DNA of 64,000 bases from an uncultured Acidobacteriota bacterium. GTDB taxonomy: Bacteria > Acidobacteriota > Polarisedimenticolia > J045. This document shows positions 7,084 to 14,910 of this stretch, one piece after another. The DNA lies in assembly GCA_964420365.1 (NCBI GenBank), contig CAYQTA010000011.1, positions 13,031-77,030 on the forward strand, read 5' to 3'. The notes under the pieces were generated by a model. It saw nothing but the letters and a program-made list of their open reading frames with translations. It was not told the origin of the DNA and searched no databases. Every line of letters starts with the position of its first letter. Positions within the stretch are counted from its first letter, which is position 1. Position numbers and translations under genes: made by a program.

Positions 7084-8640
7084 TCAGCCCGGGACGCGCC
7101 AGACGGTGTCCAGGACGGTGCCGTCGACCCACTTGATGACGGCGACCGGCTCGTCGGTCAGCTCGGGCCGGGCGGGCTTGCCGCCGACGATCCGCTCCAC
7201 CTCCGCCTGGATCTCCTCGATCGGCCGGACCGGGAGGTCGGTTCCCCTCACCGCATCGAGCAGGTCCTGCCGGAGCGGGTTGATCGCGATCCCCCGCTCC
7301 GTGACGACCACGTCGACCAGCTCGGAGGGACCGGTGATCGTCGTCACCTCGTCGACGATCACCGGGATCCGGTCCCGGAACGAGGGAACGGCGAGGATCG
7401 TGCACCGGGAGAAGAGGCAGTTCTGCCAGCCGCCGATCCCGTGAAGGAGCCGGCCGTCCGAGTGGGTGACCACGTTGGCCCGGAACCGGACGTCCACCTC
7501 GGTCGCCCCGAGCACCACCGCGTCGACCATCGACGCGAAGTTTCCCTTGCCGTGGTAGTTGTACGAGGTGAACGGCGTGGTCGGGACGTGCCGCGGGTCG
7601 CTGGCGATCGAGCGGACGGCGTCCAGGTCGAAGGTCTGCCCGTCGAGGATGTAGTCGGTCAGCCCCTCCTGGAGCATCTCCACCAGGACCTTGGTCGATC
7701 CCCCCCGGACGAACCGCGCCTTGACGCCCGCCTCCCGCATCATCTCGCGCAGGAACGCGACGAAGGCGAGAGAGATGCCGCCGGCCCCGGCCTGGAACGA
7801 GAAGCCGTCCCTCATGATGCCCGCCTCGCGGATGAAGCGGGCCACCAGCTCCGCGATCCGCAACCGGTCGGGACTGCGCGTGATGCGGGTCGTGCCGGAA
7901 ACGATCTTCTCCGGGTCCCCGATCGAGTCGACCTCGACAACGTAGTCGACGTCGTTCCCGTGGATCTGCCAGGGGATGCACGGAAACGGCACCAGGTTGT
8001 CGGTGACCACGATCACGTGGTCGGCATAGATCGAGTCGGCGACGGCGAACCCGAGGGAACCGCAGGCCGAGGGCCCGTGGGCCCCGTTGGCGTTCCCGAA
8101 CGGGTCGGCGCAGGGCGCGGCGATCACCGCGATGTCGACGTGGACCTCGCCGTCCTGGATCGCCTGCCAGCGCCCGCCGTGGGAGCGGAGGACCCCGAGT
8201 CCCCGCATCTTCCCCCGCGAGCAGTAGTCTCCCAGGGGCCCGTTCATCGAGCCCTCGATGTGGTGGACGACTCCCTGCTCCATCAGGTCGATCACCGGCG
8301 CGTGGCAGGGGAAGGAGGCGCTGGGAAACCACATCAGGTCCTTCGCGCCGAGCCGGGCGGCCGCCTCGAGGGCGGCGAGGGCGACGCGGTCCCCGTTGCG
8401 CAGGTGGTGGTGGGTCGAGATCGTCATCCCGTCCCGGAGACCGCAGGCCTCGAGGGCCGCCTCGAGGGACGGCACCCGCTTGTCCCCGTCCGCCGGGTAG
8501 TCGGCGCAGGTCCGGATCGGGGGCGCGGCCTTCCTGCCTTCCGGCCGGTACTTCCCCACCCCCCGGTACGGCACCTGGGCCCTGCCGTTCACCTCCGTGG
8601 GAACCAGCCGGCCCGCCGCGTTCTTCACCATCCCGCTCAT
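7084..8640 (-). CDS. citF: Citrate lyase alpha subunit-like CoA/ACP transferase
   Basis: Motifs GLRDGMTISTHHHLRNGD, GVLRSHGGR, ACGSLGFA, FSFQAGAGG and LGATEVDVRFRANV. ATG 8640 overlaps the upstream stop. Confidence 0.88.
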   Translation of the reverse strand: MSGMVKNAAGRLVPTEVNGRAQVPYRGVGKYRPEGRKAAPPIRTCADYPADGDKRVPSLEAALEACGLRDGMTISTHHHLRNGDRVALAALEAAARLGAKDLMWFPSASFPCHAPVIDLMEQGVVHHIEGSMNGPLGDYCSRGKMRGLGVLRSHGGRWQAIQDGEVHVDIAVIAAPCADPFGNANGAHGPSACGSLGFAVADSIYADHVIVVTDNLVPFPCIPWQIHGNDVDYVVEVDSIGDPEKIVSGTTRITRSPDRLRIAELVARFIREAGIMRDGFSFQAGAGGISLAFVAFLREMMREAGVKARFVRGGSTKVLVEMLQEGLTDYILDGQTFDLDAVRSIASDPRHVPTTPFTSYNYHGKGNFASMVDAVVLGATEVDVRFRANVVTHSDGRLLHGIGGWQNCLFSRCTILAVPSFRDRIPVIVDEVTTITGPSELVDVVVTERGIAINPLRQDLLDAVRGTDLPVRPIEEIQAEVERIVGGKPARPELTDEPVAVIKWVDGTVLDTVWRVPG

Positions 8641-9824
8641 GCGTCGTCTCCCAGGAGGCCCATCGCCCGGGCCCGCTCCACGAGCTTGAGTGCCCGCTCG
8701 ACGACGGGCGGATCGATCATCTTGCTGCCGAGGCTGACGACGCCGAGCCCCCTCGCCTGCGCGTCTTCGAAGGCCGCGACGATCTTCCGGGCCCTCTCGA
8801 TCTCGGCGGCGGAGGGGGCGAACGCCTCGTGGATCACCGGGACCTGCCGCGGATGGACCGCCCCCATTCCCTCGAAGCCGATCGCCCGGGCCCGCTCGCC
8901 CCACGCCCGGAGGCCGTCCATGTCGGCGACGTTCCCGTAGACCGAGTCGATCGCCTGGATGCCCGCCGCCTTGGCGGCATTGACGAGGCGCAGCCGGGCC
9001 CAGAGGCTCTCCTCGCCCCCCGGCGTCTTCACGACCCCGAGGTCGGCCGTGTAGTCCTCGAGCCCGATCGTCAGCGCACAGACCCGCTCCGAGGCGGTCG
9101 CGATCTCGAACGCCCGCTCGATCCCGAGGGCCGACTCGAGGATCGGCATCAGCCAGACGTCCCGGTCGGGCAGGATCCGCCGGATCGCGGCGTCCACCTC
9201 GCGGACCTGCTCGGCGGACTCGACCTTCGGGACCAGCACCAGGTCCGGCCGTTCCGGGATCACCTCCCGCAGGTCCTCGAGTCCCAGCGGGAGCTGGTTG
9301 ATCCGCACCATCCGCTCGGCCCCGCCGAAGTCGATCGCCCGCAGGGCGTTGCGCACCAGGAGCCGGGCCGCGTCCTTCTCCGCCGGGTGCACGGAGTCCT
9401 CGAGGTCGAGGATCAGGCCGTCCGCCCCGTGGAGCCCGGCGTTCGGGAAGTACTTCGGCTCGTTGCCCGGGAGGTAGAGCCGGGACCGGCGCAGCCGGTC
9501 CCGGGGCGACGGGGGGGGCAGGGGGAGCCCCCCGGGGAGGTGCCGCTTCCCCTCGCCGAGGCCCGCCCGGCGCACCGCCGCCTCGATCCGGGCCGCGATG
9601 ACGAACGGCAGGGCTCCCCGGTCGTCGATCTCGAGCCGACCGGCGGTGACCCCCAGGTCCGCGAGAACCCGCCGCGCCTGCTCCTCGATCGCCGTGCCGT
9701 ACCAGGTGGCGACCTTCGACCGCAGCTCGATGCGGAGACCGTCCCCGCCCGGCTCGAAGCGGACGAACAGGTCCGAGCGAACCCCATCGCCCCGGCGGCC
9801 GGCCTCTCCCGCGCGCTCGCCCAT
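8637..9824 (-). CDS. CitD (ACP-like)-CitE (citryl-CoA lyase family) fusion
   Basis: The N-terminal ~90 aa are CitD-like (RSDLFV…IELRSKV…YG.AI…IDDRGALPFVIAARIEAAV). The CitE domain follows: RRSRLYLPGN, ILDLEDSV, RMVRIN, ILESALG, GLEDYTADLG, HPRQ. Confidence 0.85.
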   Translation of the reverse strand: MGERAGEAGRRGDGVRSDLFVRFEPGGDGLRIELRSKVATWYGTAIEEQARRVLADLGVTAGRLEIDDRGALPFVIAARIEAAVRRAGLGEGKRHLPGGLPLPPPSPRDRLRRSRLYLPGNEPKYFPNAGLHGADGLILDLEDSVHPAEKDAARLLVRNALRAIDFGGAERMVRINQLPLGLEDLREVIPERPDLVLVPKVESAEQVREVDAAIRRILPDRDVWLMPILESALGIERAFEIATASERVCALTIGLEDYTADLGVVKTPGGEESLWARLRLVNAAKAAGIQAIDSVYGNVADMDGLRAWGERARAIGFEGMGAVHPRQVPVIHEAFAPSAAEIERARKIVAAFEDAQARGLGVVSLGSKMIDPPVVERALKLVERARAMGLLGDDA

Positions 9825-9835
9825 GGTTTCCTCGC

Positions 9836-11020
9836 TCACAGGTTGGCGATGATCGCGTCCGTCATCTGCGTCGTCGTGGCCGCTCCCCGGGAGATCGCGT
9901 CCGGGCCACCCGGGATCTTCATCATGTCGTAGGTGCGGACCTTCCCCTCCGCGATCACGGCCGCGATCGCCTCGCGCACCCGCCTCGCCTTCTCCTCCTC
10001 GCCCACGTGGTCGAGCAGCATCGCGGCGGAGAGGATCATCGCGATCGGGTTGACGATCGGGGGGTCGAGCTCGGCGTACTTCGGCGCGGACCCGTGGGTC
10101 GGCTCGAACACCGCGACCTCGTCCCCGATGTTCCCCGAGCAGGCGAACCCGAGCCCGCCGACCAGCCCGGCAAAGGCGTCGGAAACGATGTCGCCGAACA
10201 GGTTGCCGGCGACGATCACGCCGTAGTCCTCCGGGTTCTTCGTCAGCCACATCATCTGGGCGTCGATGTTCGTCGACCAGAGCTCGATCTCCGGGAAGTC
10301 CTTCCGCACCTCGCGCGCGACCTCCTCCATCATGCCGGAGGTCTCGCGCAGCACGTTCGGCTTCTCGCAGACCGTCACCGACCGGTACCCGTGCTTCTTC
10401 GCGTACTGGAAGGCCGCGGTGAGGATCCGGCGGCAGGCACGCCGGGTGAAGATCCGAACGGAAAGGGCCAGGTCCTCGCCGGGAACGTCCTTGAAGCGCT
10501 CGAACTTGGGATGCGTCTCGAGCGCCTTGCGGACCACCTCCGGCGGATCGGTCCACTCGACGCCCGCGTAGAGCCCCTCGGTGTTCTGCCGGAAGATCAC
10601 GGCGTCCACCGGCGGCTCCTCGAACCCGCCGTCGGGGGTCCGCCGGATGAAGTTCAGCGGGTTCCCCCTGAACGACCGGCAGGGCCGGATGCAGACGTCG
10701 AGGTTGAACCGCTGCCGCATCCCGACGATCGGGGAGAAGTAGACGTATCCCCTGTCGCGCAGGGAGGGATCGAGTTCCTTCGCCGCCTCGGCCTTGGGCT
10801 TGCTCGTGATCGCCCCGAAGAGTCCCAGCTTGTGCTCGGCGAGCAGCTCGACGGTCCGCTCCGGGAGGGGATTCCCCTCCTTCACCCAGAACTCCCAGCC
10901 GATGTCCGCGTGCACGTACTCGGCATCGAAGCCGACCGCGTCGAGGACGCGGATCGCCTCCGGCAGCACGGTCTTGCCGATCCCGTCGCCGGGCATCGCC
11001 ACCACGGTGTACTTCGCCAT
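9836..11020 (-). CDS. Isocitrate/isopropylmalate/homoisocitrate dehydrogenase family protein
   Basis: Motifs PGDGIG, GAITS, SPIVGMR, NTEGLY, KPNVL, NLFGDIVSD and FEPTHGSAPKYA. Confidence 0.9.
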   Translation of the reverse strand: MAKYTVVAMPGDGIGKTVLPEAIRVLDAVGFDAEYVHADIGWEFWVKEGNPLPERTVELLAEHKLGLFGAITSKPKAEAAKELDPSLRDRGYVYFSPIVGMRQRFNLDVCIRPCRSFRGNPLNFIRRTPDGGFEEPPVDAVIFRQNTEGLYAGVEWTDPPEVVRKALETHPKFERFKDVPGEDLALSVRIFTRRACRRILTAAFQYAKKHGYRSVTVCEKPNVLRETSGMMEEVAREVRKDFPEIELWSTNIDAQMMWLTKNPEDYGVIVAGNLFGDIVSDAFAGLVGGLGFACSGNIGDEVAVFEPTHGSAPKYAELDPPIVNPIAMILSAAMLLDHVGEEEKARRVREAIAAVIAEGKVRTYDMMKIPGGPDAISRGAATTTQMTDAIIANL

Positions 11021-11024
11021 CGTC

Positions 11025-12983
11025 TCACCCCTCCTGGTTCCCGCCCGCGGCGAGCTTCTGTTTCACGAGGTTCTCCACCCCGCCCGCGACGACCAGCGCC
11101 TGGGGCACCTCCGACAGGGCGGGGAACGGCCACTCCTTCCCGTCCCAGCGGATGACGCCCGCGGCGAAGTCGACCTCGATCTCCTCGCCGGGGACGATCG
11201 TCCGCTCGCCGGCCGCGACCCGGTCCGCGAACCGCTCCCGGAGGGCGGCGACCAGGTCGGGCTGGACGATGCAGGCGAAGCCGTTGTTGAACGCGTTCCT
11301 CAGGTACGTCTGGGAGAAACCGGCCGCGATCACCAGCGCGATCCCCTTCGCCTGCAGCGCGGTGACCGCCTGCTCGCGGCTCGACCCGGTGCCGAAGTTG
11401 AACCCGCCGACGAGGACGTCTCCCTCGCGGGTCTTCGCCGCGAACTCCGGGTCGTAGTTCTCCATCACGACCCGGGCCATCTCCTCCCGGGTCATGTCCT
11501 CGCGGTAGGTGTAGTCCTTTCCGTAGATGCCGTCGGTGTTGAGGTTGTCCTGCGGCAGGAAGACCAGCCGCCCGCGGACCCGCTCCGGGAACCCCGGGAG
11601 GATCTCCACCCTCGCCGGCTCCCGGGCCGGTTCCTCGAACTGCTCGATCCGCCGGGCCGGTTCCCGCGCGTCCCACTCGCCGGGGCCGGTGATCTTCCCG
11701 GCCAGCGCCGAGGCAGCGACGACGGCAGGACTCGCCAGGTAGCAGCGGGCGTCCCGGGACCCCATCCGGCCCTTGAAGTTCCGGTTGGTCGCCGAGATGC
11801 CGACCTCCCCCGCCTCGAGGAGCCCCACCCCGAGCCCGATGCAGGGGCCGCAGGCGGGGGGCAGCATCACGGCGCCCGCCTCCTTGAGAATGCGCCAGGT
11901 CCCACGGCGCTCCGCCTCCGCCTGGATCTCCCGGCTGGCCGCGGCGACGTACAACCGTGCCCTCGCCCTCTTCCCGGCCAGGACCCGCGCCGCCGCCTCC
12001 AGGTCCTCGAGGCGGGAGTTCACGCACGAAAGGATGTAGGCCCGGTCGACGGGAATCTCCTGCCGGGCGACTTCAGGCAGCGGCGCCCCGGCCTGGACGG
12101 TGTCCGGGCCGGCCACGTGGGGCACGACCTCCCCGAGGTCGAGGACGATCCGGGCCGCGTAGCGGGCATCCGGGTCGGGCGCCGGGGGATCCTCTTCCCA
12201 CCGGTCGATGTCGTCCGCGGAGAACGGCCGCCGCCCGGTCGCCTCGAGCACGGCGAGCCGCTCCCGGAACCAGGCGATCGTCCGCCCGTCCACCGGGAAC
12301 CAGCCGGTGAGAGCACCCCACTCGGTCGTCATGTTGGCGATCGTCATCCGGGCATCGATCGAGAGCTCGGCGACCCCCGGCCCCGCGAACTCGACGGCGG
12401 CGTTCAGCGCCTCCCCCTCCCGGTACAGCCGGCAGAGGGCGAGGATCACGTCCTTGCCGGTGACGCCCTCCCGGAGCTTCCCCTCGAGGACGACCTGGAC
12501 GGTCCGCGGCACCTGCCACCAGGTCTCCCCGGAGGCCCAGATCGCGGCCGCGTCGGTCCGCACGACCGGCGTGCCGAGGGCACCGACCGCCCCGTACATG
12601 TTCGAGTGGCTGTCCGACGCGACGACCAGGGCGCCGGGAGTGACGTACCCCTGCTCCAGCATCACCTGGTGGCCGATGCCGGTGCCCGCCGGCCAGAAGT
12701 CGATCCCCTGTTCCCGGGCGAACGCCTCGATCGATGCGTACTTGGCCAGGTTCTTCGCCGACACGTTCTGGATGTCGTGATCGAGGGCGAAGACCGGCTG
12801 CCGGGGATCGTGGACCCGGGGGATGCCGAGTCCCCGGAACTTCTTCATCACCGCGGCCGTGTTGTCGTGGGTCATCACGTGCTTCGGGCGCACGGTGACG
12901 AAGTCGCCGGCGCGCACCTCCCGGTCCCGCGGACCGGAGGTCATGTGCGCCTGGGCGATCTTCTCGGCAATCGTCTGGCCCAT
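11025..12983 (-). CDS. Single-chain homoaconitase-like hydratase (fungal Lys4/LysF type; large and swivel domains fused)
   Basis: Motifs HVMTHDN, LDHDIQN, GIGHQVM, ASDSHSNMYG, RTDAAAIWASGETWWQVP; Fe-S cysteines in SCVNSR and ACGPCIG; C-terminal DNLNTDGIY…MENYDPEF…NFGTGSSREQA. Confidence 0.85.
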   Translation of the reverse strand: MGQTIAEKIAQAHMTSGPRDREVRAGDFVTVRPKHVMTHDNTAAVMKKFRGLGIPRVHDPRQPVFALDHDIQNVSAKNLAKYASIEAFAREQGIDFWPAGTGIGHQVMLEQGYVTPGALVVASDSHSNMYGAVGALGTPVVRTDAAAIWASGETWWQVPRTVQVVLEGKLREGVTGKDVILALCRLYREGEALNAAVEFAGPGVAELSIDARMTIANMTTEWGALTGWFPVDGRTIAWFRERLAVLEATGRRPFSADDIDRWEEDPPAPDPDARYAARIVLDLGEVVPHVAGPDTVQAGAPLPEVARQEIPVDRAYILSCVNSRLEDLEAAARVLAGKRARARLYVAAASREIQAEAERRGTWRILKEAGAVMLPPACGPCIGLGVGLLEAGEVGISATNRNFKGRMGSRDARCYLASPAVVAASALAGKITGPGEWDAREPARRIEQFEEPAREPARVEILPGFPERVRGRLVFLPQDNLNTDGIYGKDYTYREDMTREEMARVVMENYDPEFAAKTREGDVLVGGFNFGTGSSREQAVTALQAKGIALVIAAGFSQTYLRNAFNNGFACIVQPDLVAALRERFADRVAAGERTIVPGEEIEVDFAAGVIRWDGKEWPFPALSEVPQALVVAGGVENLVKQKLAAGGNQEG

Positions 12984-12997
12984 CACGGCCTCCCGGC

Positions 12998-14371
12998 TCA
13001 GGCGTCCTTCGCGCAGAGCGCCATCAGCTCGGTGATCGAGCCGAGGTTCTCCAGGTTCCAGACGGCCTCCTTCAGCCTCGCGCGCCGCTCCTCCGAGAGC
13101 ACCGGGGCCGCGAGGGCGTCGAACTTCGCCTCGATCTCCTCGTCCGAGAGCGGGTTGCGCGGGTCGCCCTTGGGATAGTCGAGCTGCTTCTCGTAGCGCT
13201 GCCCGTCGACCGTCTCGATGGTGACGTGGACCCGCTGCAGCTCGGGAAAGACCTTCTCGATCTCCGGGTCGGCGAGGACTTCCACCTTGTGGAGCTGTTC
13301 CCGGATCACCGGGTCCATGATGCGCTCCGGCGTGAAGGCCGCAGGGGTCACGTTCCGGTCGACCAGGGCCGCGGCGATCACGTACGGCAGCGAGTGGTCC
13401 GCCGTTTCCTTGCTCCGCGGGTCGTACTTGCTCGGGTCGGCAAGGATGTCGGCGGCACGGGCGAGAGAGCGGATGATCACCTTCTTCACTCGCTCCGGTG
13501 CCAGGTCGTGCTCCCGCACCAGGTCGAGGACGGCGGAGATCGGCGTATGGGTCAGCGCCTCGGTCGGAAACGCCTTCATCCCGCAGCGGGTGATCCGCCA
13601 CGACTCTCCCAGCCCCTCGACCAGGATGTCCAGCTTCCACTCCGGCCCGAGGCAGTGGACCAGCCCCTCCTTGCCGTCGATCACGTGCTCCGGCCCCGTG
13701 TAGCCCTTCTCCGCCAGGAGGGCCGCCAGCACGCCGGACTGGGTGGCCAGCGGGTCGACGGTGTTCTTCATCATCGTCAGCTTGCCGGCGGTCACCGCGC
13801 CCAGGGTGGCGTGGCGGCTGCCGGAGATACCGATCGCGTGCTGGATCTTCTCCCAGTCCAGGTGAAGCATCCGCCCCGCGACGATCGGCGCGGCGAACGC
13901 GGTCAGCGTCGCGTGGTGCCAGCCCCGTTCCCGGATCCCCGGGAACGCGATCTCGCACAGCCGCATCTCGAACTCGTGTCCGAGCACGATCCCGACGATC
14001 AGCTCCTTTCCGTCTCCCCCGGCCCGCTCGCCGCACGCCATCGCCGCCGGGATGATGTCCGAGGGATGGGACGGGTCCTGCTGCCAGTAGATGTCGTTGT
14101 AGTCCATCACCCGGACCATCAGGGCGTTCGCCAGCGAGGCCGAGACCGGGTCGAGCCGCTTCCCGGTCCCGATCACCGTGGCCGGCCCCTCCCCGGCGCA
14201 CTCCTCGAGGACGCCGAGGGCGATCTCGACGTCGTGCTTGGTGTACCCCCCGAGGGCACACCCGAGGGAATCGAGGAGGAAGCGCTTCGCCTCCCGGACG
14301 GCCTCCGGGGACAGGTCGTCGAACCTGAGGTCGGCGGCCCAGCGGGCCATCTTCTCGGTGATCGTGCTCAT
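12998..14371 (-). CDS. MmgE/PrpD-family dehydratase
   Basis: Motifs LLDSLGCALG, RVMDYNDIY…HPSD, RGWHHAT, KAFPTEALTH, ETADHSLPY and PKGDPRNPLSDEEIEAKF. ATGA overlap with the upstream gene. Confidence 0.9.
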   Translation of the reverse strand: MSTITEKMARWAADLRFDDLSPEAVREAKRFLLDSLGCALGGYTKHDVEIALGVLEECAGEGPATVIGTGKRLDPVSASLANALMVRVMDYNDIYWQQDPSHPSDIIPAAMACGERAGGDGKELIVGIVLGHEFEMRLCEIAFPGIRERGWHHATLTAFAAPIVAGRMLHLDWEKIQHAIGISGSRHATLGAVTAGKLTMMKNTVDPLATQSGVLAALLAEKGYTGPEHVIDGKEGLVHCLGPEWKLDILVEGLGESWRITRCGMKAFPTEALTHTPISAVLDLVREHDLAPERVKKVIIRSLARAADILADPSKYDPRSKETADHSLPYVIAAALVDRNVTPAAFTPERIMDPVIREQLHKVEVLADPEIEKVFPELQRVHVTIETVDGQRYEKQLDYPKGDPRNPLSDEEIEAKFDALAAPVLSEERRARLKEAVWNLENLGSITELMALCAKDA

Positions 14372-14910
14372 CGCAGGCTCTCCTTGAAGGGCAGGAAGCT
14401 CATGAAGTCCGCGTGGTGGACGATCGTCGCCTCGACGCTGCGCTTCACCATGTTTCCCTCGCCGGCGTGCGCGGCGATGACGTGGCACACCGCGTCGGGC
14501 ACGCCGCACTCCATGGCGAGGGCCACGCCGGTGAACGGGTGCCGCAGGTACTTCCCGCGCATGCTCTGCCGGGCCTCGCCCTCCACGATCTCGTACTCGA
14601 GGAGCTTGCCGACGTCGGCGAGGATCGCCCCCGCGATCACGACGTCCATGTCGATCGGCAGCGACTTCCCCATGAACTCCCGCATCGCCTCGGCGGACCT
14701 CCGGGCGATGTGGACCACGCAGCGCTTGTGTTCCATGAAGGTGACCGGGCAGTCCGGCACGAGCAGCGTGAACGGGATCCGCTCGAGGTCCTCCGGGGCC
14801 AGCGGACTTCTCTCGAGGGCAAGCTCCCATGTTCGCTCGACTTTTGCCCGCAGGTCGGAGTCGGAGATCCACTCCAGCTCGGGCCACAGGCGGCGGACGG
14901 CGTCGCTCAT
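14368..14910 (-). CDS. HD-superfamily (HDIG-like) protein with HD replaced by AD
   Basis: Motifs MEH(61)KRCV, GAILA(98)D(99)VGKLLEY, RHPFTG, IAAHAGEG and IVHHAD. First gene of the operon. Confidence 0.75.
   Translation of the reverse strand: MSDAVRRLWPELEWISDSDLRAKVERTWELALERSPLAPEDLERIPFTLLVPDCPVTFMEHKRCVVHIARRSAEAMREFMGKSLPIDMDVVIAGAILADVGKLLEYEIVEGEARQSMRGKYLRHPFTGVALAMECGVPDAVCHVIAAHAGEGNMVKRSVEATIVHHADFMSFLPFKESLR

What the first reader, a model, noticed from the sequence alone, without database searches (positions are those of the whole stretch)
9836..11020. Dehydrogenase combines a homoisocitrate-DH-like substrate loop with an NADP-type signature
Seen: substrate-loop segment YFSPIVGMR, preceded by an insertion of roughly a dozen residues (KAEAAKELDPSLRDRG), and coenzyme segment HGSAPKYA. 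Known, from recall: yeast Lys12 has YSSPIVALR, IDHs have SLNV-type loops and IPMDHs have E..LL-type loops. NAD enzymes of this family have HGSAPDIA, while NADP-IDH has HGTAPKYA. Inference: this may be an NADP(H)-dependent homoisocitrate dehydrogenase, which would be unusual and would suit reductive carboxylation.
Basis: partly seen in the sequence, partly recalled or inferred. Interest (0 to 1): 0.62.

Follow-up and report, generated by a model that had tools for sequence, protein, structure and literature searches.

The report
NADP-type homoisocitrate dehydrogenase in lyase operon
This gene encodes an uncharacterised relative of the lysine-pathway enzyme homoisocitrate dehydrogenase that has switched to an NADP-type cofactor pocket and sits beside a citrate-lyase-like enzyme where a synthase would normally be, which suggests that many soil and sediment bacteria run the first half of that lysine pathway backwards to break down 2-oxoadipate.

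Summary
ORF 9836-11020 (minus strand, 394 aa) is an intact Iso_dh-family dehydrogenase. It has YFSPIVGMR, a 13-15-residue insertion before that loop, and HGSAPKYA.

All catalytic, metal and alpha/beta-carboxylate residues are kept. The isocitrate-specific Asn115 is Ile. Four of the five residues that set NADP use in E. coli IDH are identical (K, Y, V, Y); the fifth is K or R. All are invariant or nearly invariant in 121 relatives.

The protein fails every curated equivalog model. In a tree it falls in a separate "SP[IV]" clade. NAD-type members of that clade lie in genuine alpha-aminoadipate lysine clusters (LysW/X/Y/Z/K, fungal-type homoaconitase, homocitrate synthase).

Here the gene sits in a six-gene operon conserved across phyla: HD, PrpD-like, fungal-type homoaconitase, this dehydrogenase, CitD::CitE and CitF. 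The genome has no homocitrate synthase, no LysW route and no citC/X/G, and it has a separate IDH. A sister group, also K-Y, sits next to an HMG-CoA-lyase-type enzyme and a family III CoA-transferase.

Most likely reading: an NADP(H)-linked homoisocitrate/2-oxoadipate dehydrogenase in an undescribed lyase-based pathway that probably runs reductively. This is untested biochemically.

The parts
9836..11020 (-). Beta-decarboxylating dehydrogenase (P0001, 394 aa), the subject of the finding. HICDH-type loop and NADP-type cofactor residues.
   Evidence: Pfam Iso_dh 260 bits. Below all NCBIfam equivalog cut-offs. AF2 pLDDT 95.6. Clade placement.
10715..10741 (-). Substrate loop YFSPIVGMR (residues 94-102). 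S96 corresponds to E. coli IDH S113, I98 to N115, V99 to V116 and R102 to R119.
   Evidence: Alignment A1. Same S-P-I-V as S. pombe HICDH 3ty3. Invariant in 121 relatives.
10742..10801 (-). Clade-specific insertion KPKAEAAKELDPSLRDRGYV (residues 74-93) before the substrate loop. Modelled with a short helix at 76-81.
   Evidence: 13-15 extra residues. (K74, P75, K76, L87 and Y94 invariant; A79, E82 and G91 nearly so). (shared by the SP[IV] clade)..
10073..10096 (-). Cofactor segment HGSAPKYA (residues 309-316). K314 and Y315 correspond to E. coli IDH K344 and Y345.
   Evidence: Determinant residues from PMC5817062.
9917..9931 (-). YDMMK (residues 364-368). Y364 corresponds to E. coli IDH Y391 and K368 to R395 (2'-phosphate contacts).
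   Evidence: Y invariant; position 368 is R in 83 and K in 38 of 121.
10475..10678 (-). Middle or 'clasp' region with insertions that resemble type I NADP-IDHs more than HICDH or NAD-IDH.
   Evidence: A PDB search with residues 92-232 finds B. subtilis, E. coli and other type I IDHs first. Highest query TM-scores are with type I IDHs.
11025..12983 (-). Fused large+small aconitase-family hydratase of fungal (Lys4) homoaconitase type, 652 aa. Its stop lies 4 nt before the dehydrogenase start.
   Evidence: TIGR00139 729 bits against a cut-off of 530. 53-55% identical over the large-subunit domain, and 43% over the aligned small-subunit part, to the fused homoaconitase of a LysW-type AAA cluster.
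12998..14371 (-). MmgE/PrpD-family protein, 457 aa. Proposed homocitrate/cis-homoaconitate dehydratase partner of the Lys4-type hydratase.
   Evidence: Pfam MmgE_PrpD N and C domains. In the PDB it is closer to IDS-epimerase and IRG1/CAD than to PrpD.
14368..14910 (-). HD-fold protein, 180 aa, first gene of the operon. It reads ILADVGK where HD proteins have H-D.
   Evidence: Pfam HD. Sequence. No PDB sequence match. Conserved in 61 of 80 loci.
8637..9839 (-). CitD::CitE fusion (carrier domain plus citryl-CoA-lyase-type TIM barrel). Start is GTG 9839 or ATG 9824.
   Evidence: Pfam ACP plus HpcH_HpaI. citE 261 bits against a cut-off of 443. E. coli CitD Ser14 aligns to Arg21, with a Ser next to it.
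7084..8640 (-). CitF-type CoA-transferase (citrate lyase alpha subunit family), 518 aa.
   Evidence: Pfam CitF. TIGR01584 495 bits against a cut-off of 501. 39% identical to E. coli CitF.

Best explanation
P0001 is a metal-dependent beta-decarboxylating dehydrogenase that uses NADP(H). It most likely interconverts (2R,3S)-homoisocitrate and 2-oxoadipate + CO2.

It is the redox step of a self-contained six-gene operon. In that operon a PrpD-family enzyme plus a Lys4-type homoaconitase isomerise homocitrate and homoisocitrate through cis-homoaconitate. A CitF-type CoA-transferase plus a CitE-type lyase take the place of homocitrate synthase.

The C-C step is a lyase with CoA recycling, not an irreversible synthase. 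The genome also has no homocitrate synthase and no LysW route that would consume 2-oxoadipate. The pathway therefore most likely runs in the cleavage direction:
1. 2-oxoadipate + CO2 + NADPH gives homoisocitrate.
2. Homoisocitrate gives cis-homoaconitate.
3. cis-Homoaconitate gives homocitrate.
4. Homocitrate gives homocitryl thioester.
5. The thioester is cleaved to 2-oxoglutarate plus an acetyl unit or acetate.

Shown: fold, catalytic residues, NADP-type determinants, clade membership, operon structure and operon conservation.
Inferred: the substrate, from homology and context, and the direction, from context and thermodynamics.
For: 1. Intact catalytic set. The equivalents of R119, R129, R153, Y160, K230, D283, D307 and D311 are all present and conserved in 121 relatives (D307 is D in 120 of 121). 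The model is confident, pLDDT 95.6.
2. NADP determinants K, Y, V, Y and K/R sit at the positions that specificity-swap experiments defined.
3. It is not an isocitrate enzyme. N115 is Ile, invariantly. All nine operon-carrying genomes examined have a separate IDH candidate. In eight it is a curated or Pfam-confirmed IDH; in this genome it is an unclassified paralogue with an SANV loop.
4. It is not LeuB. The genome has no HMGL-like synthase and only two aconitase-family genes.
5. The S-P-I-V loop is that of the solved S. pombe HICDH.
6. Relatives at 42-45% identity with the same insertion and loop lie in a LysW-LysX-LysY-LysZ-LysK / fused HACN (TIGR00139 584 > 530) / DH / HCS (TIGR02146 444 > 414) cluster, and in an HCS-DH-HacA-HacB cluster. 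They group with P0001 in one clade, support 82/91, apart from the Thermus HICDH / NAD-IDH / NADP-IDH clade.
7. The adjacent hydratase is homoaconitase-type, 729 bits against a cut-off of 530.
8. The six-gene set is kept in 51-67 of 80 loci from records labelled Gemmatimonadota, Acidobacteriota, Latescibacterota, Bacteroidota, Ignavibacteria and Planctomycetota.
9. The cofactor motif follows the context. D-[IL] occurs in the two synthase contexts. K-Y occurs in this lyase context and in a second, non-homologous one: HMG-CoA-lyase family plus family III CoA-transferase plus HacAB.
10. The genome lacks HCS, LysW/Y/Z/K and citC/X/G.
Against: - There is no biochemical datum for any member.
- P0001 fails all curated HICDH models (AksF2 271/540, AksF 262/500, iso_homocit_dh 147/680).
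- The SP[IV] clade has only moderate support (82/91). It also holds members in unrelated contexts: next to a PKS, fused to MoCF_biosynth or RraA, or isolated. The loop alone therefore does not fix the substrate.
- I98 and V99 are hydrophobic, like L-L in IPMDH, so a hydrophobic or shorter side chain is conceivable.
- The PrpD-family partner is nearer to IDS-epimerase and cis-aconitate decarboxylase than to PrpD.
- No source of 2-oxoadipate was identified in the genome.
- No conserved transporter, regulator or lysine-catabolic gene flanks the operon.
- The correlation between cofactor and context rests on only two synthase and two lyase contexts.
Confidence: 0.45

Rival explanations
1. Same substrate pair, opposite direction. 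CitE condenses acetyl-CoA with 2-oxoglutarate to homocitryl-CoA, and CitF passes the CoA to acetate. Together they act as an ATP-sparing homocitrate synthase. P0001 then oxidises homoisocitrate to 2-oxoadipate and yields NADPH.
For: All steps are chemically reversible. NADP-IDH works oxidatively in many bacteria although it uses NADP. The relatives in AAA clusters work oxidatively.
Against: The genome has no LysW/X/Y/Z/K route and no other evident consumer of 2-oxoadipate. Without thioester hydrolysis the condensation has no driving force at millimolar substrate concentrations (established thermodynamics of citrate lyase; inference). Relatives in synthase contexts carry the NAD motif, while both lyase contexts carry K-Y.
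Confidence: 0.15
2. It is an NADP isocitrate dehydrogenase of a citrate-lyase-based reductive branch: 2-oxoglutarate + CO2 gives isocitrate, then citrate, then oxaloacetate + acetate.
For: The clasp region and the cofactor pocket resemble type I NADP-IDH. CitF scores almost at the curated citF cut-off, 495 against 501. An AU test does not reject a clade with NADP-IDH (p = 0.076).
Against: Asn115 is invariantly Ile. The score is far below the NADP-IDH models, 178 against 567. The tree places it outside the IDH clade. Every carrier genome has its own IDH candidate, and this genome also has its own aconitase. The hydratase is homoaconitase-type, and the extra PrpD-family enzyme would not be needed for citrate.
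Confidence: 0.1
3. It acts on another 3-substituted (2R)-malate, for example 3-methylmalate/2-oxobutyrate (a reverse citramalate route), 3-isopropylmalate/2-oxoisocaproate, or a longer or hydroxylated tricarboxylate.
For: I98 and V99 are hydrophobic like the IPMDH pair. Citramalate lyase of clostridia is a CitDEF-type complex (own knowledge). The sister module's pairing of an HMG-CoA-lyase-family enzyme with a family III CoA-transferase resembles the Chloroflexus citramalyl-CoA lyase/transferase pair (own knowledge). SP[IV]-clade members occur in varied contexts.
Against: The adjacent hydratase passes the homoaconitase equivalog cut-off and is 53-55% identical over its large-subunit domain to the hydratase of a genuine AAA cluster. 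The loop is identical in type to a solved HICDH. PrpD-family and CitF/CitE-type enzymes typically handle tricarboxylates (own knowledge).
Confidence: 0.2

Closest known systems
Fungal homoisocitrate dehydrogenase (S. cerevisiae Lys12; S. pombe Lys12, PDB 3TY3/3TY4)
   Same: Same fold, catalytic residues and S-P-I-V substrate loop (YSSPIVALR against YFSPIVGMR). Like the fungal enzyme, it is partnered with a Lys4-type fused homoaconitase.
   Different: About 31% identity overall. P0001 has about 13 extra residues before the loop and IDH-like clasp insertions. It has K-Y where the NAD-type D-I would be. Its context has a lyase and CoA-transferase where a homocitrate synthase would be.
Uncharacterised bacterial HICDHs inside LysW-type alpha-aminoadipate clusters (P0153 in L120; P0157 in L126)
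   Same: Same clade, same TSKP-insertion-SPIV architecture, 42-45% identity, and next to a homoaconitase.
   Different: They carry HGSAPD[LI] (NAD type) and lack the Y..R/K pair. They are clustered with homocitrate synthase, and P0153 also with LysW/X/Y/Z/K.
Thermus thermophilus homoisocitrate dehydrogenase (PDB 1X0L/3ASJ)
   Same: Best sequence match among solved structures (E 5e-59, 36-38% identity). Same catalytic machinery.
   Different: Thermus uses Arg85 at the position where P0001 has Val99. It has no insertion and no clasp inserts, is NAD type (HGSAPDIA), and belongs to a different clade.
Type I NADP-isocitrate dehydrogenase (E. coli Icd)
   Same: NADP determinants K344, Y345, V351 and Y391 are identical, and R395 is K/R. 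Clasp-region architecture is similar, and the query TM-score is the highest, 0.82.
   Different: N115 is Ile. There is a 15-residue insertion before the loop, and the E. coli insertion after residue 258 is missing. The score is 178 bits against a cut-off of 567. The tree places it outside the IDH clade, so the K-Y pocket probably arose independently.
Citrate lyase CitDEF with CitC/CitX/CitG (E. coli citCDEFXG)
   Same: The operon partners CitF and CitE are 39% identical to the E. coli subunits, and a CitD-like domain is present.
   Different: The carrier is fused to CitE. Its Ser14 position aligns to Arg, with a Ser one residue later. The genome has no citC, citX or citG. The partners are linked to a homoaconitase-type hydratase and this dehydrogenase.

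Membership tests
Beta-decarboxylating dehydrogenases (Pfam Iso_dh, PF00180) | Profile match over the whole domain, above the gathering score | tested here: met
   260.5 bits against 27, residues 6-390.
Beta-decarboxylating dehydrogenases (Pfam Iso_dh, PF00180) | Catalytic Tyr/Lys pair, three Asp metal ligands and three Arg for the substrate carboxylates | tested here: met
   Y151, K220, D253, D277, D281, R102, R112 and R144 align to E. coli Y160, K230, D283, D307, D311, R119, R129 and R153. All are invariant in 121 relatives except D277, which is D in 120 of 121.
Beta-decarboxylating dehydrogenases (Pfam Iso_dh, PF00180) | Two-domain IDH/IPMDH fold | tested here: met
   AF2 pLDDT 95.6, pTM 0.93. 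Foldseek probability 1.0, TM 0.74-0.92, to IDH, HICDH and IPMDH structures.
Homoisocitrate dehydrogenase (EC 1.1.1.87 and curated NCBIfam HICDH models) | Score above a curated HICDH equivalog cut-off (AksF, AksF2, iso_homocit_dh) | tested here: not met
   271/540, 262/500 and 147/680. These models were built on archaeal enzymes. No curated HICDH model in NCBIfam matched above its cut-off, and none of the models that matched represents this clade.
Homoisocitrate dehydrogenase (EC 1.1.1.87 and curated NCBIfam HICDH models) | Substrate loop as in an experimentally solved HICDH | tested here: met
   S-P-I-V-x-[LM]-R is shared with S. pombe HICDH 3ty3. The loop differs from the Thermus type, F-G-A-I-R.
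Homoisocitrate dehydrogenase (EC 1.1.1.87 and curated NCBIfam HICDH models) | Phylogenetic grouping with dehydrogenases encoded in alpha-aminoadipate lysine clusters | tested here: met
   One clade, support 82/91, with P0153 (LysWXYZK-HACN-HCS cluster) and P0157 (HCS-HacAB cluster). Support is moderate.
Homoisocitrate dehydrogenase (EC 1.1.1.87 and curated NCBIfam HICDH models) | Genomic association with homoaconitase | tested here: met
   The adjacent gene scores TIGR00139 729 against 530. The pairing is kept in 67 of 80 loci.
Homoisocitrate dehydrogenase (EC 1.1.1.87 and curated NCBIfam HICDH models) | Association with homocitrate synthase and the lower lysine pathway | tested here: not met
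   No HMGL-like gene in this genome or in 3 of 8 other carrier genomes. No LysW/Y/Z/K or HCS by tblastn.
Homoisocitrate dehydrogenase (EC 1.1.1.87 and curated NCBIfam HICDH models) | NAD+ as coenzyme (Asp at the E. coli IDH 344 position) | tested here: not met
   K314-Y315 where D-I would be, plus V323, Y364 and K/R368. This predicts NADP(H).
Homoisocitrate dehydrogenase (EC 1.1.1.87 and curated NCBIfam HICDH models) | Activity with homoisocitrate or 2-oxoadipate | not testable with these tools
   Needs an enzyme assay.
Type I NADP-isocitrate dehydrogenase (TIGR00183 prok_nadp_idh) | Score above the curated cut-off | tested here: not met
   178 against 567. Genuine NADP-IDHs from carrier genomes score 551-681 on TIGR00183 and pass at least one curated NADP-IDH cut-off.
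Type I NADP-isocitrate dehydrogenase (TIGR00183 prok_nadp_idh) | Ser113 and Asn115 for the isocitrate gamma-carboxylate | tested here: not met
   Ser is kept, Asn is Ile, invariantly.
Type I NADP-isocitrate dehydrogenase (TIGR00183 prok_nadp_idh) | NADP determinants K344, Y345, V351, Y391, R395 | tested here: met
   K, Y, V, Y and K/R.
Type I NADP-isocitrate dehydrogenase (TIGR00183 prok_nadp_idh) | Membership of the NADP-IDH clade | tested here: inconclusive
   The ML tree places it outside. A constrained tree is 18.7 lnL worse, p-AU 0.076.
3-isopropylmalate dehydrogenase (LeuB, TIGR00169) | Score above the cut-off, and presence of LeuA and LeuCD in the genome | tested here: not met
   165 against 353. 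No HMGL-like gene, and only two aconitase-family genes: a canonical aconitase and the operon hydratase. Carrier genomes that make leucine have a separate LeuB.

The most novel reading that the evidence does not exclude
A widespread, undescribed 'reverse upper alpha-aminoadipate' shunt. 2-Oxoadipate is reductively carboxylated by an NADP-type homoisocitrate dehydrogenase. It is then isomerised by a Lys4-type homoaconitase plus a PrpD-family dehydratase. Finally it is cleaved, as a CoA or carrier thioester, to 2-oxoglutarate plus an acetyl unit. The route was assembled at least twice with non-homologous lyase/CoA-transferase pairs: CitE/CitF here, and an HMG-CoA-lyase-type enzyme with a family III CoA-transferase in a sister group. 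In both cases it goes with a switch from an NAD to an NADP pocket relative to the biosynthetic homoisocitrate dehydrogenases of the same clade.
Probability: 0.35. Interest if true: 0.8.

Novelty: new variant of a known kind. Interest (0 to 1): 0.66.

Why it matters
Every homoisocitrate dehydrogenase I know to be characterised is an NAD enzyme of a biosynthetic chain-elongation route (own knowledge; no counter-example appeared in the paper searches). An NADP-type member tied to a lyase would be new in two respects:
- It would be the first HICDH-type enzyme predicted to work reductively.
- It would be the redox step of a new catabolic link from 2-oxoadipate (lysine, hydroxylysine, tryptophan, aminoadipate) to 2-oxoglutarate. 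That link would need no 2-oxoadipate dehydrogenase complex, no glutaryl-CoA and no oxygen.

The operon is present in at least several hundred species-level genomes of abundant soil and sediment phyla. There it is currently annotated as isocitrate or isopropylmalate dehydrogenase plus citrate lyase, which can mislead reconstructions of the TCA cycle, the reductive TCA cycle and leucine synthesis.

It also offers a natural pair for studying how coenzyme specificity changes with pathway direction. NAD-type biosynthetic and NADP-type lyase-linked enzymes occur in one clade, and the K-Y pocket is apparently independent of the one in E. coli-type IDH.

Tried and rejected
- A 51-residue query of loop plus insertion against the PDB found no family member. 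A construct with the insertions removed was needed to bring 3ty3 into view.
- LeuB reading: rejected. The genome has no LeuA or LeuCD, and other carriers have their own LeuB.
- Sole housekeeping IDH: rejected. Every carrier genome examined has another IDH candidate.
- Canonical AAA lysine biosynthesis: rejected for this genome.
- Canonical citrate fermentation: unlikely, because there is no citC/X/G, and citT gives only a weak partial match (30% identity over 108 of 487 residues, E 1.6e-5).
- Conserved flanking genes (transporters, regulators, lysine catabolism): none beyond the six genes.
- Context look-ups for P0127, P0137, P0146, P0172, P0179, P0164, P0136 and P0190 gave short, fragmentary or unrelated neighbourhoods.
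- AU tests could not decide whether the clade is sister to NADP-IDH or to Thermus HICDH.
- Six full-text searches found no paper on a homocitrate lyase, homocitryl-CoA, an NADP-dependent HICDH or this gene set.
- The HD protein has no sequence match in the PDB.
Full report
**1. The object**

Window 9836-11020 on the minus strand is one intact ORF of 394 aa, P0001. It starts with ATG 4 nt after the stop of the upstream gene, behind a GGAGG. The next gene starts 12 nt after its stop (ATG 9824) or overlaps it (GTG 9839). Third-position GC is 0.95 in this frame. Pfam gives one full-length Iso_dh domain.

All sixteen NCBIfam hits are far below their curated cut-offs. The best are archaeal AksF2 (271/540) and AksF (262/500). 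NAD-IDH, IPMDH and NADP-IDH models follow at similar distances. The best solved relative by sequence is Thermus thermophilus HICDH (E 5e-59).

**2. The observation**

Positions were checked by translation:
- YFSPIVGMR is residues 94-102.
- The preceding KPKAEAAKELDPSLRDRGYV is residues 74-93.
- HGSAPKYA is residues 309-316.

Against Thermus HICDH the pre-loop segment is 13 residues longer. Against E. coli Icd it is 15 longer. Against S. pombe HICDH it is about 13 longer.

- S. pombe HICDH 3ty3 reads YSSPIVALR.
- E. coli Icd reads RSLNVALRQ and HGTAPKYA.
- E. coli LeuB reads GGSAPDIA.
- Thermus HICDH reads HGSAPDIA.

**3. Residue-level reading**

In an alignment with E. coli Icd and LeuB (A1), P0001 keeps every residue that binds the malate core, the metal and the catalytic acid/base pair. 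These are the equivalents of R119, R129, R153, Y160, K230, D283, D307 and D311. Ser113 is kept. Asn115, which contacts the gamma-carboxylate of isocitrate (own knowledge of the E. coli structure), is Ile98.

At the coenzyme site P0001 has K314, Y315, V323, Y364 and K368. E. coli Icd has K344, Y345, V351, Y391 and R395 at those positions.
- Replacing these five residues (K344D, Y345I, V351A, Y391K, R395S) converts E. coli IDH to NAD use.
- Introducing four of them (D289K, I290Y, A296V, G337Y) converts E. coli IPMDH to NADP use (table in PMC5817062).

In 121 family members S-P-I-V, K-Y and Y364 are invariant. V323 is kept in 119. Position 368 is R in 83 and K in 38. The prediction of NADP(H) use is therefore as strong as sequence can make it.

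**4. Architecture**

Residues about 100-235 include two insertions absent from HICDH and NAD-IDH. In the PDB this stretch finds type I IDHs first: B. subtilis, Acidithiobacillus, Legionella, Burkholderia, Aeropyrum and E. coli.

An AlphaFold2 model is very confident (pLDDT 95.6, pTM 0.93). Foldseek finds the whole family with probability 1. The highest query-normalised TM-scores (0.81-0.82) are to type I IDHs. No solved chain is more than 38% identical. The clade-specific insertion is modelled with a short helix at residues 76-81.

**5. What it is not**

The window's genome is 3.15 Mb and 98% complete. It holds only two Iso_dh genes:
- P0001.
- A 400-aa paralogue on contig 25 with an S-A-N-V loop, the probable IDH.

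It has no monomeric IDH. It has one citrate synthase and two aconitase-family genes, a canonical aconitase and the operon hydratase. It has no HMGL-like gene at all, so no LeuA, homocitrate synthase or citramalate synthase. P0001 is therefore not LeuB.

In eight other genomes that carry the operon there is always a separate, curated-model-positive NADP-IDH or a monomeric IDH. Where leucine genes exist there is also a separate LeuB. P0001-type proteins are thus an extra paralogue, never the only IDH candidate. The same holds for ten genomes with related SP[IV]-type dehydrogenases, mostly the sister group.

**6. Neighbourhood**

Six co-oriented, tightly packed genes form the unit:
- An HD-fold protein at 14910-14368. 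It reads ILADVGK.
- A PrpD-family protein at 14371-12998.
- A fused aconitase-family hydratase at 12983-11025.
- P0001.
- A CitD::CitE fusion at 9839-8637.
- CitF at 8640-7084.

The hydratase scores 729 bits on TIGR00139, the fungal-type homoaconitase model (cut-off 530). CitF scores 495 against 501 on citF, and CitE scores 261 against 443.

The PrpD-family protein is nearer to IDS-epimerase and IRG1/cis-aconitate decarboxylase than to PrpD among solved structures.

Of these, 577 encode a relative. In the best 80 loci the partners recur as follows:

| Partner | Loci (of 80) | Identity |
|---|---|---|
| Hydratase | 67 | 60-80% in most |
| HD | 61 | 60-80% in most |
| CitD::CitE | 61 | 60-80% in most |
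| CitF | 56 | 60-80% in most |
| PrpD-like | 51 | 60-80% in most |

Identity drops to 30-55% in rearranged loci. Many of the missing cases are short contigs. The records are labelled Gemmatimonadota, Acidobacteriota, Latescibacterota, Bacteroidota, Ignavibacteria, Planctomycetota and others.

No further gene is conserved in the flanks.

In a sample of 201 genomes of the window's phylum:
- 34 carry an orthologue at 68% identity or more.
- One carries a 62% relative.
- 38 more carry a 54-63% sister form.

**7. The decisive comparative result**

A full HMMER search of 1.84 billion cluster representatives shows that the close family collapses into few 50% clusters. It also shows a wider set of proteins that share the T-S-K-P start, the insertion and an S-P-[IV] loop.

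Two of these have the NAD motif HGSAPDL, are 42-45% identical to P0001, and sit in unmistakable contexts.
- P0153 lies in the order LysW, LysX, LysY-type semialdehyde dehydrogenase, LysZ-type kinase, LysK-type peptidase, fused aconitase-family hydratase, dehydrogenase, HMGL-like synthase. The hydratase passes the homoaconitase model (584 > 530). The synthase passes the homocitrate synthase model TIGR02146 (444 > 414).
- P0157 lies in homocitrate synthase, dehydrogenase, HacA, HacB.

These are homoisocitrate dehydrogenases by every contextual criterion.

In a maximum-likelihood tree, P0001 and its orthologues form a 99/98 group. That group sits inside a clade (82/91) that also holds these AAA-cluster enzymes and the MoCF_biosynth and RraA fusion proteins. 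The clade is separate from the one that unites Thermus HICDH, NAD-IDHs and type I NADP-IDHs (first tree).

The window's hydratase is 53-55% identical, over its large-subunit domain, to the AAA-cluster hydratase.

The tree also implies that the K-Y pocket of P0001 is not inherited from the E. coli-type NADP-IDH lineage. An AU test does not formally exclude that grouping (p = 0.076).

**8. A second lyase context**

The 54-63% sister group has 371-377 aa, the loop YRSPIVRMR, and the motifs HGSAPKYAGQYKVNP and VRTYDMGG. It lies in three genomes directly upstream of these genes:
- An HMG-CoA-lyase-family protein (PRK05692 271 > 246; best PDB hits are HMG-CoA lyases).
- A family III CoA-transferase, nearest to succinate-glutarate CoA-transferase.
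- A HacA-family large subunit (hacA_fam 510 > 386).
- A small subunit.

This is the same logic as in the window: dehydrogenase, aconitase-type hydratase, CoA-transferase and acyl-CoA lyase. It is built with non-homologous transferase and lyase families, and it again has the K-Y pocket.

Other sister-group genes lie among housekeeping genes. In several genomes a HacA-like gene lies within about 1-3 kb.

The sample is small, two synthase contexts and two lyase contexts. Within it the pattern is consistent: D-[IL] goes with a synthase and K-Y goes with a lyase.

**9. Mechanistic reading**

Shown:
- An intact, strongly conserved beta-decarboxylating dehydrogenase with an NADP-type pocket.
- Membership of a clade whose context-defined members are homoisocitrate dehydrogenases.
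- Co-transcriptional arrangement with a homoaconitase-type hydratase, a PrpD-family enzyme and a CitF/CitE pair.
- A genome without homocitrate synthase, LysW/Y/Z/K or citC/citX/citG.

Inferred:
- The substrate pair is homoisocitrate and 2-oxoadipate + CO2.
- The PrpD-family enzyme supplies the homocitrate/cis-homoaconitate half-reaction. Lys4-type homoaconitases are reported not to catalyse that step (own knowledge of the fungal and Thermus work).
- CitF and CitE handle homocitrate as a thioester.
- Flux runs from 2-oxoadipate to 2-oxoglutarate plus an acetyl unit.

The argument for direction has three parts:
- A lyase with CoA recycling lacks the thioester hydrolysis that drives synthases. 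Cleavage is therefore favoured at physiological concentrations.
- NADPH, usually kept reduced, suits reductive carboxylation.
- This genome has no evident consumer of 2-oxoadipate.

I put about 0.45 on this whole statement. I put about 0.6 on "NADP-linked and homoisocitrate-type" without the direction.

**10. Rivals**

- Oxidative direction, with the lyase pair as an ATP-sparing synthase: 0.15.
- A true isocitrate dehydrogenase in a citrate-lyase-based reductive branch: 0.10. Against it stand Ile at the Asn115 position, the separate IDH candidates, the homoaconitase-type partner and the tree.
- Another 3-substituted malate, such as 3-methylmalate or 3-isopropylmalate: 0.20. It is kept alive by the hydrophobic I-V pair, by the resemblance of the sister module to citramalyl-CoA lyase/transferase pairs, and by the varied contexts of other clade members.

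**11. Novelty**

Six full-text searches found nothing on a homocitrate lyase, homocitryl-CoA, an NADP-dependent HICDH or this gene set. Public annotations call the protein isocitrate dehydrogenase (NAD+), 3-isopropylmalate dehydrogenase or just "family protein".

Earlier notes of this scan on other genomes reached a similar reading of the operon. They are AI notes and are not counted as evidence here.

As an enzyme it is a new variant of a known kind. The pathway it implies would be new.

Noticed in passing
L002 1372-2574 (genome contig C25:51357-52283 region): The genome's only other Iso_dh gene is a 400-aa protein. It has a roughly 40-residue N-terminal extension, an S-A-N-V loop and an odd cofactor motif, HGSAPRMV. 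It fails every NCBIfam equivalog cut-off (best 269/509) and sits on a very long branch (2.3). It is presumably the organism's real isocitrate dehydrogenase, of an uncurated type.
   Followed up: partly
L130 9831-14858; L134 9549-14578; L135 9173-14201: Sister module in three genomes of one family: SPIV/K-Y dehydrogenase, HMG-CoA-lyase-family protein, family III CoA-transferase, HacA and HacB. It follows the same pathway logic as the window's operon but uses non-homologous lyase and transferase families.
   Followed up: partly
P0141, P0145, P0148-P0152, P0155, P0158 (715-764 aa); P0150 (614 aa): The same SP[IV] clade contains dehydrogenases fused at the C-terminus to a MoCF_biosynth (CinA/MoaB-like) domain or to an RraA-like aldolase domain. 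Their cofactor motifs are neither D-I nor K-Y. Function is unknown.
   Followed up: partly
window 9524-9839 (-): In a pairwise alignment, Ser14 of E. coli CitD (the prosthetic-group site) falls on Arg21 of the carrier domain, with Ser22 one residue later (RSD against SGD). Loss of the attachment serine is therefore plausible but ambiguous. tblastn finds no citC, citX or citG anywhere in the genome.
   Followed up: partly
window 12998-14371 (-): Among solved structures, the PrpD-family protein of the operon is much closer to iminodisuccinate epimerase (E 1e-41) and IRG1/cis-aconitate decarboxylase (E 1e-36 to 1e-27) than to 2-methylcitrate dehydratases (E 1e-15 or weaker). Its reaction type is open: dehydratase, decarboxylase or isomerase.
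   Followed up: partly
window 14368-14910 (-): The first operon gene is a 180-aa HD-fold protein that reads ILADVGK where the family has H-D. It has no sequence match in the PDB, yet it is 70-79% conserved across phyla.
   Followed up: partly
whole genome G000: The genome lacks any HMGL-like gene and gives no tblastn hit to LysY/ArgC-type or LysZ/ArgB-type queries. This suggests leucine and possibly arginine auxotrophy and a peptide-dependent lifestyle.
   Followed up: no
L120 1123-10541: A bacterial metagenome contig carries a complete LysW-type alpha-aminoadipate lysine cluster. Its homoaconitase is the fused fungal type (TIGR00139 584 bits) and its homocitrate synthase passes the fungal/archaeal model. 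This raises the question of an evolutionary link between fungal Lys4-type enzymes and this bacterial lineage.
   Followed up: no
L119 523-3511; L132 9711-12696: The nearest outgroup of the operon-type dehydrogenases (62% identity) has HGSAP[GS]H where K-Y would be. It is paired with a fused homoaconitase-type hydratase but with no detectable CitDEF, PrpD-like or HD gene nearby.
   Followed up: partly
L123 1-9257: A 418-aa SPIL/K-Y clade member lies directly downstream of a hybrid NRPS-PKS megasynthase of more than 4200 aa. This hints at a role in a secondary-metabolite pathway.
   Followed up: no
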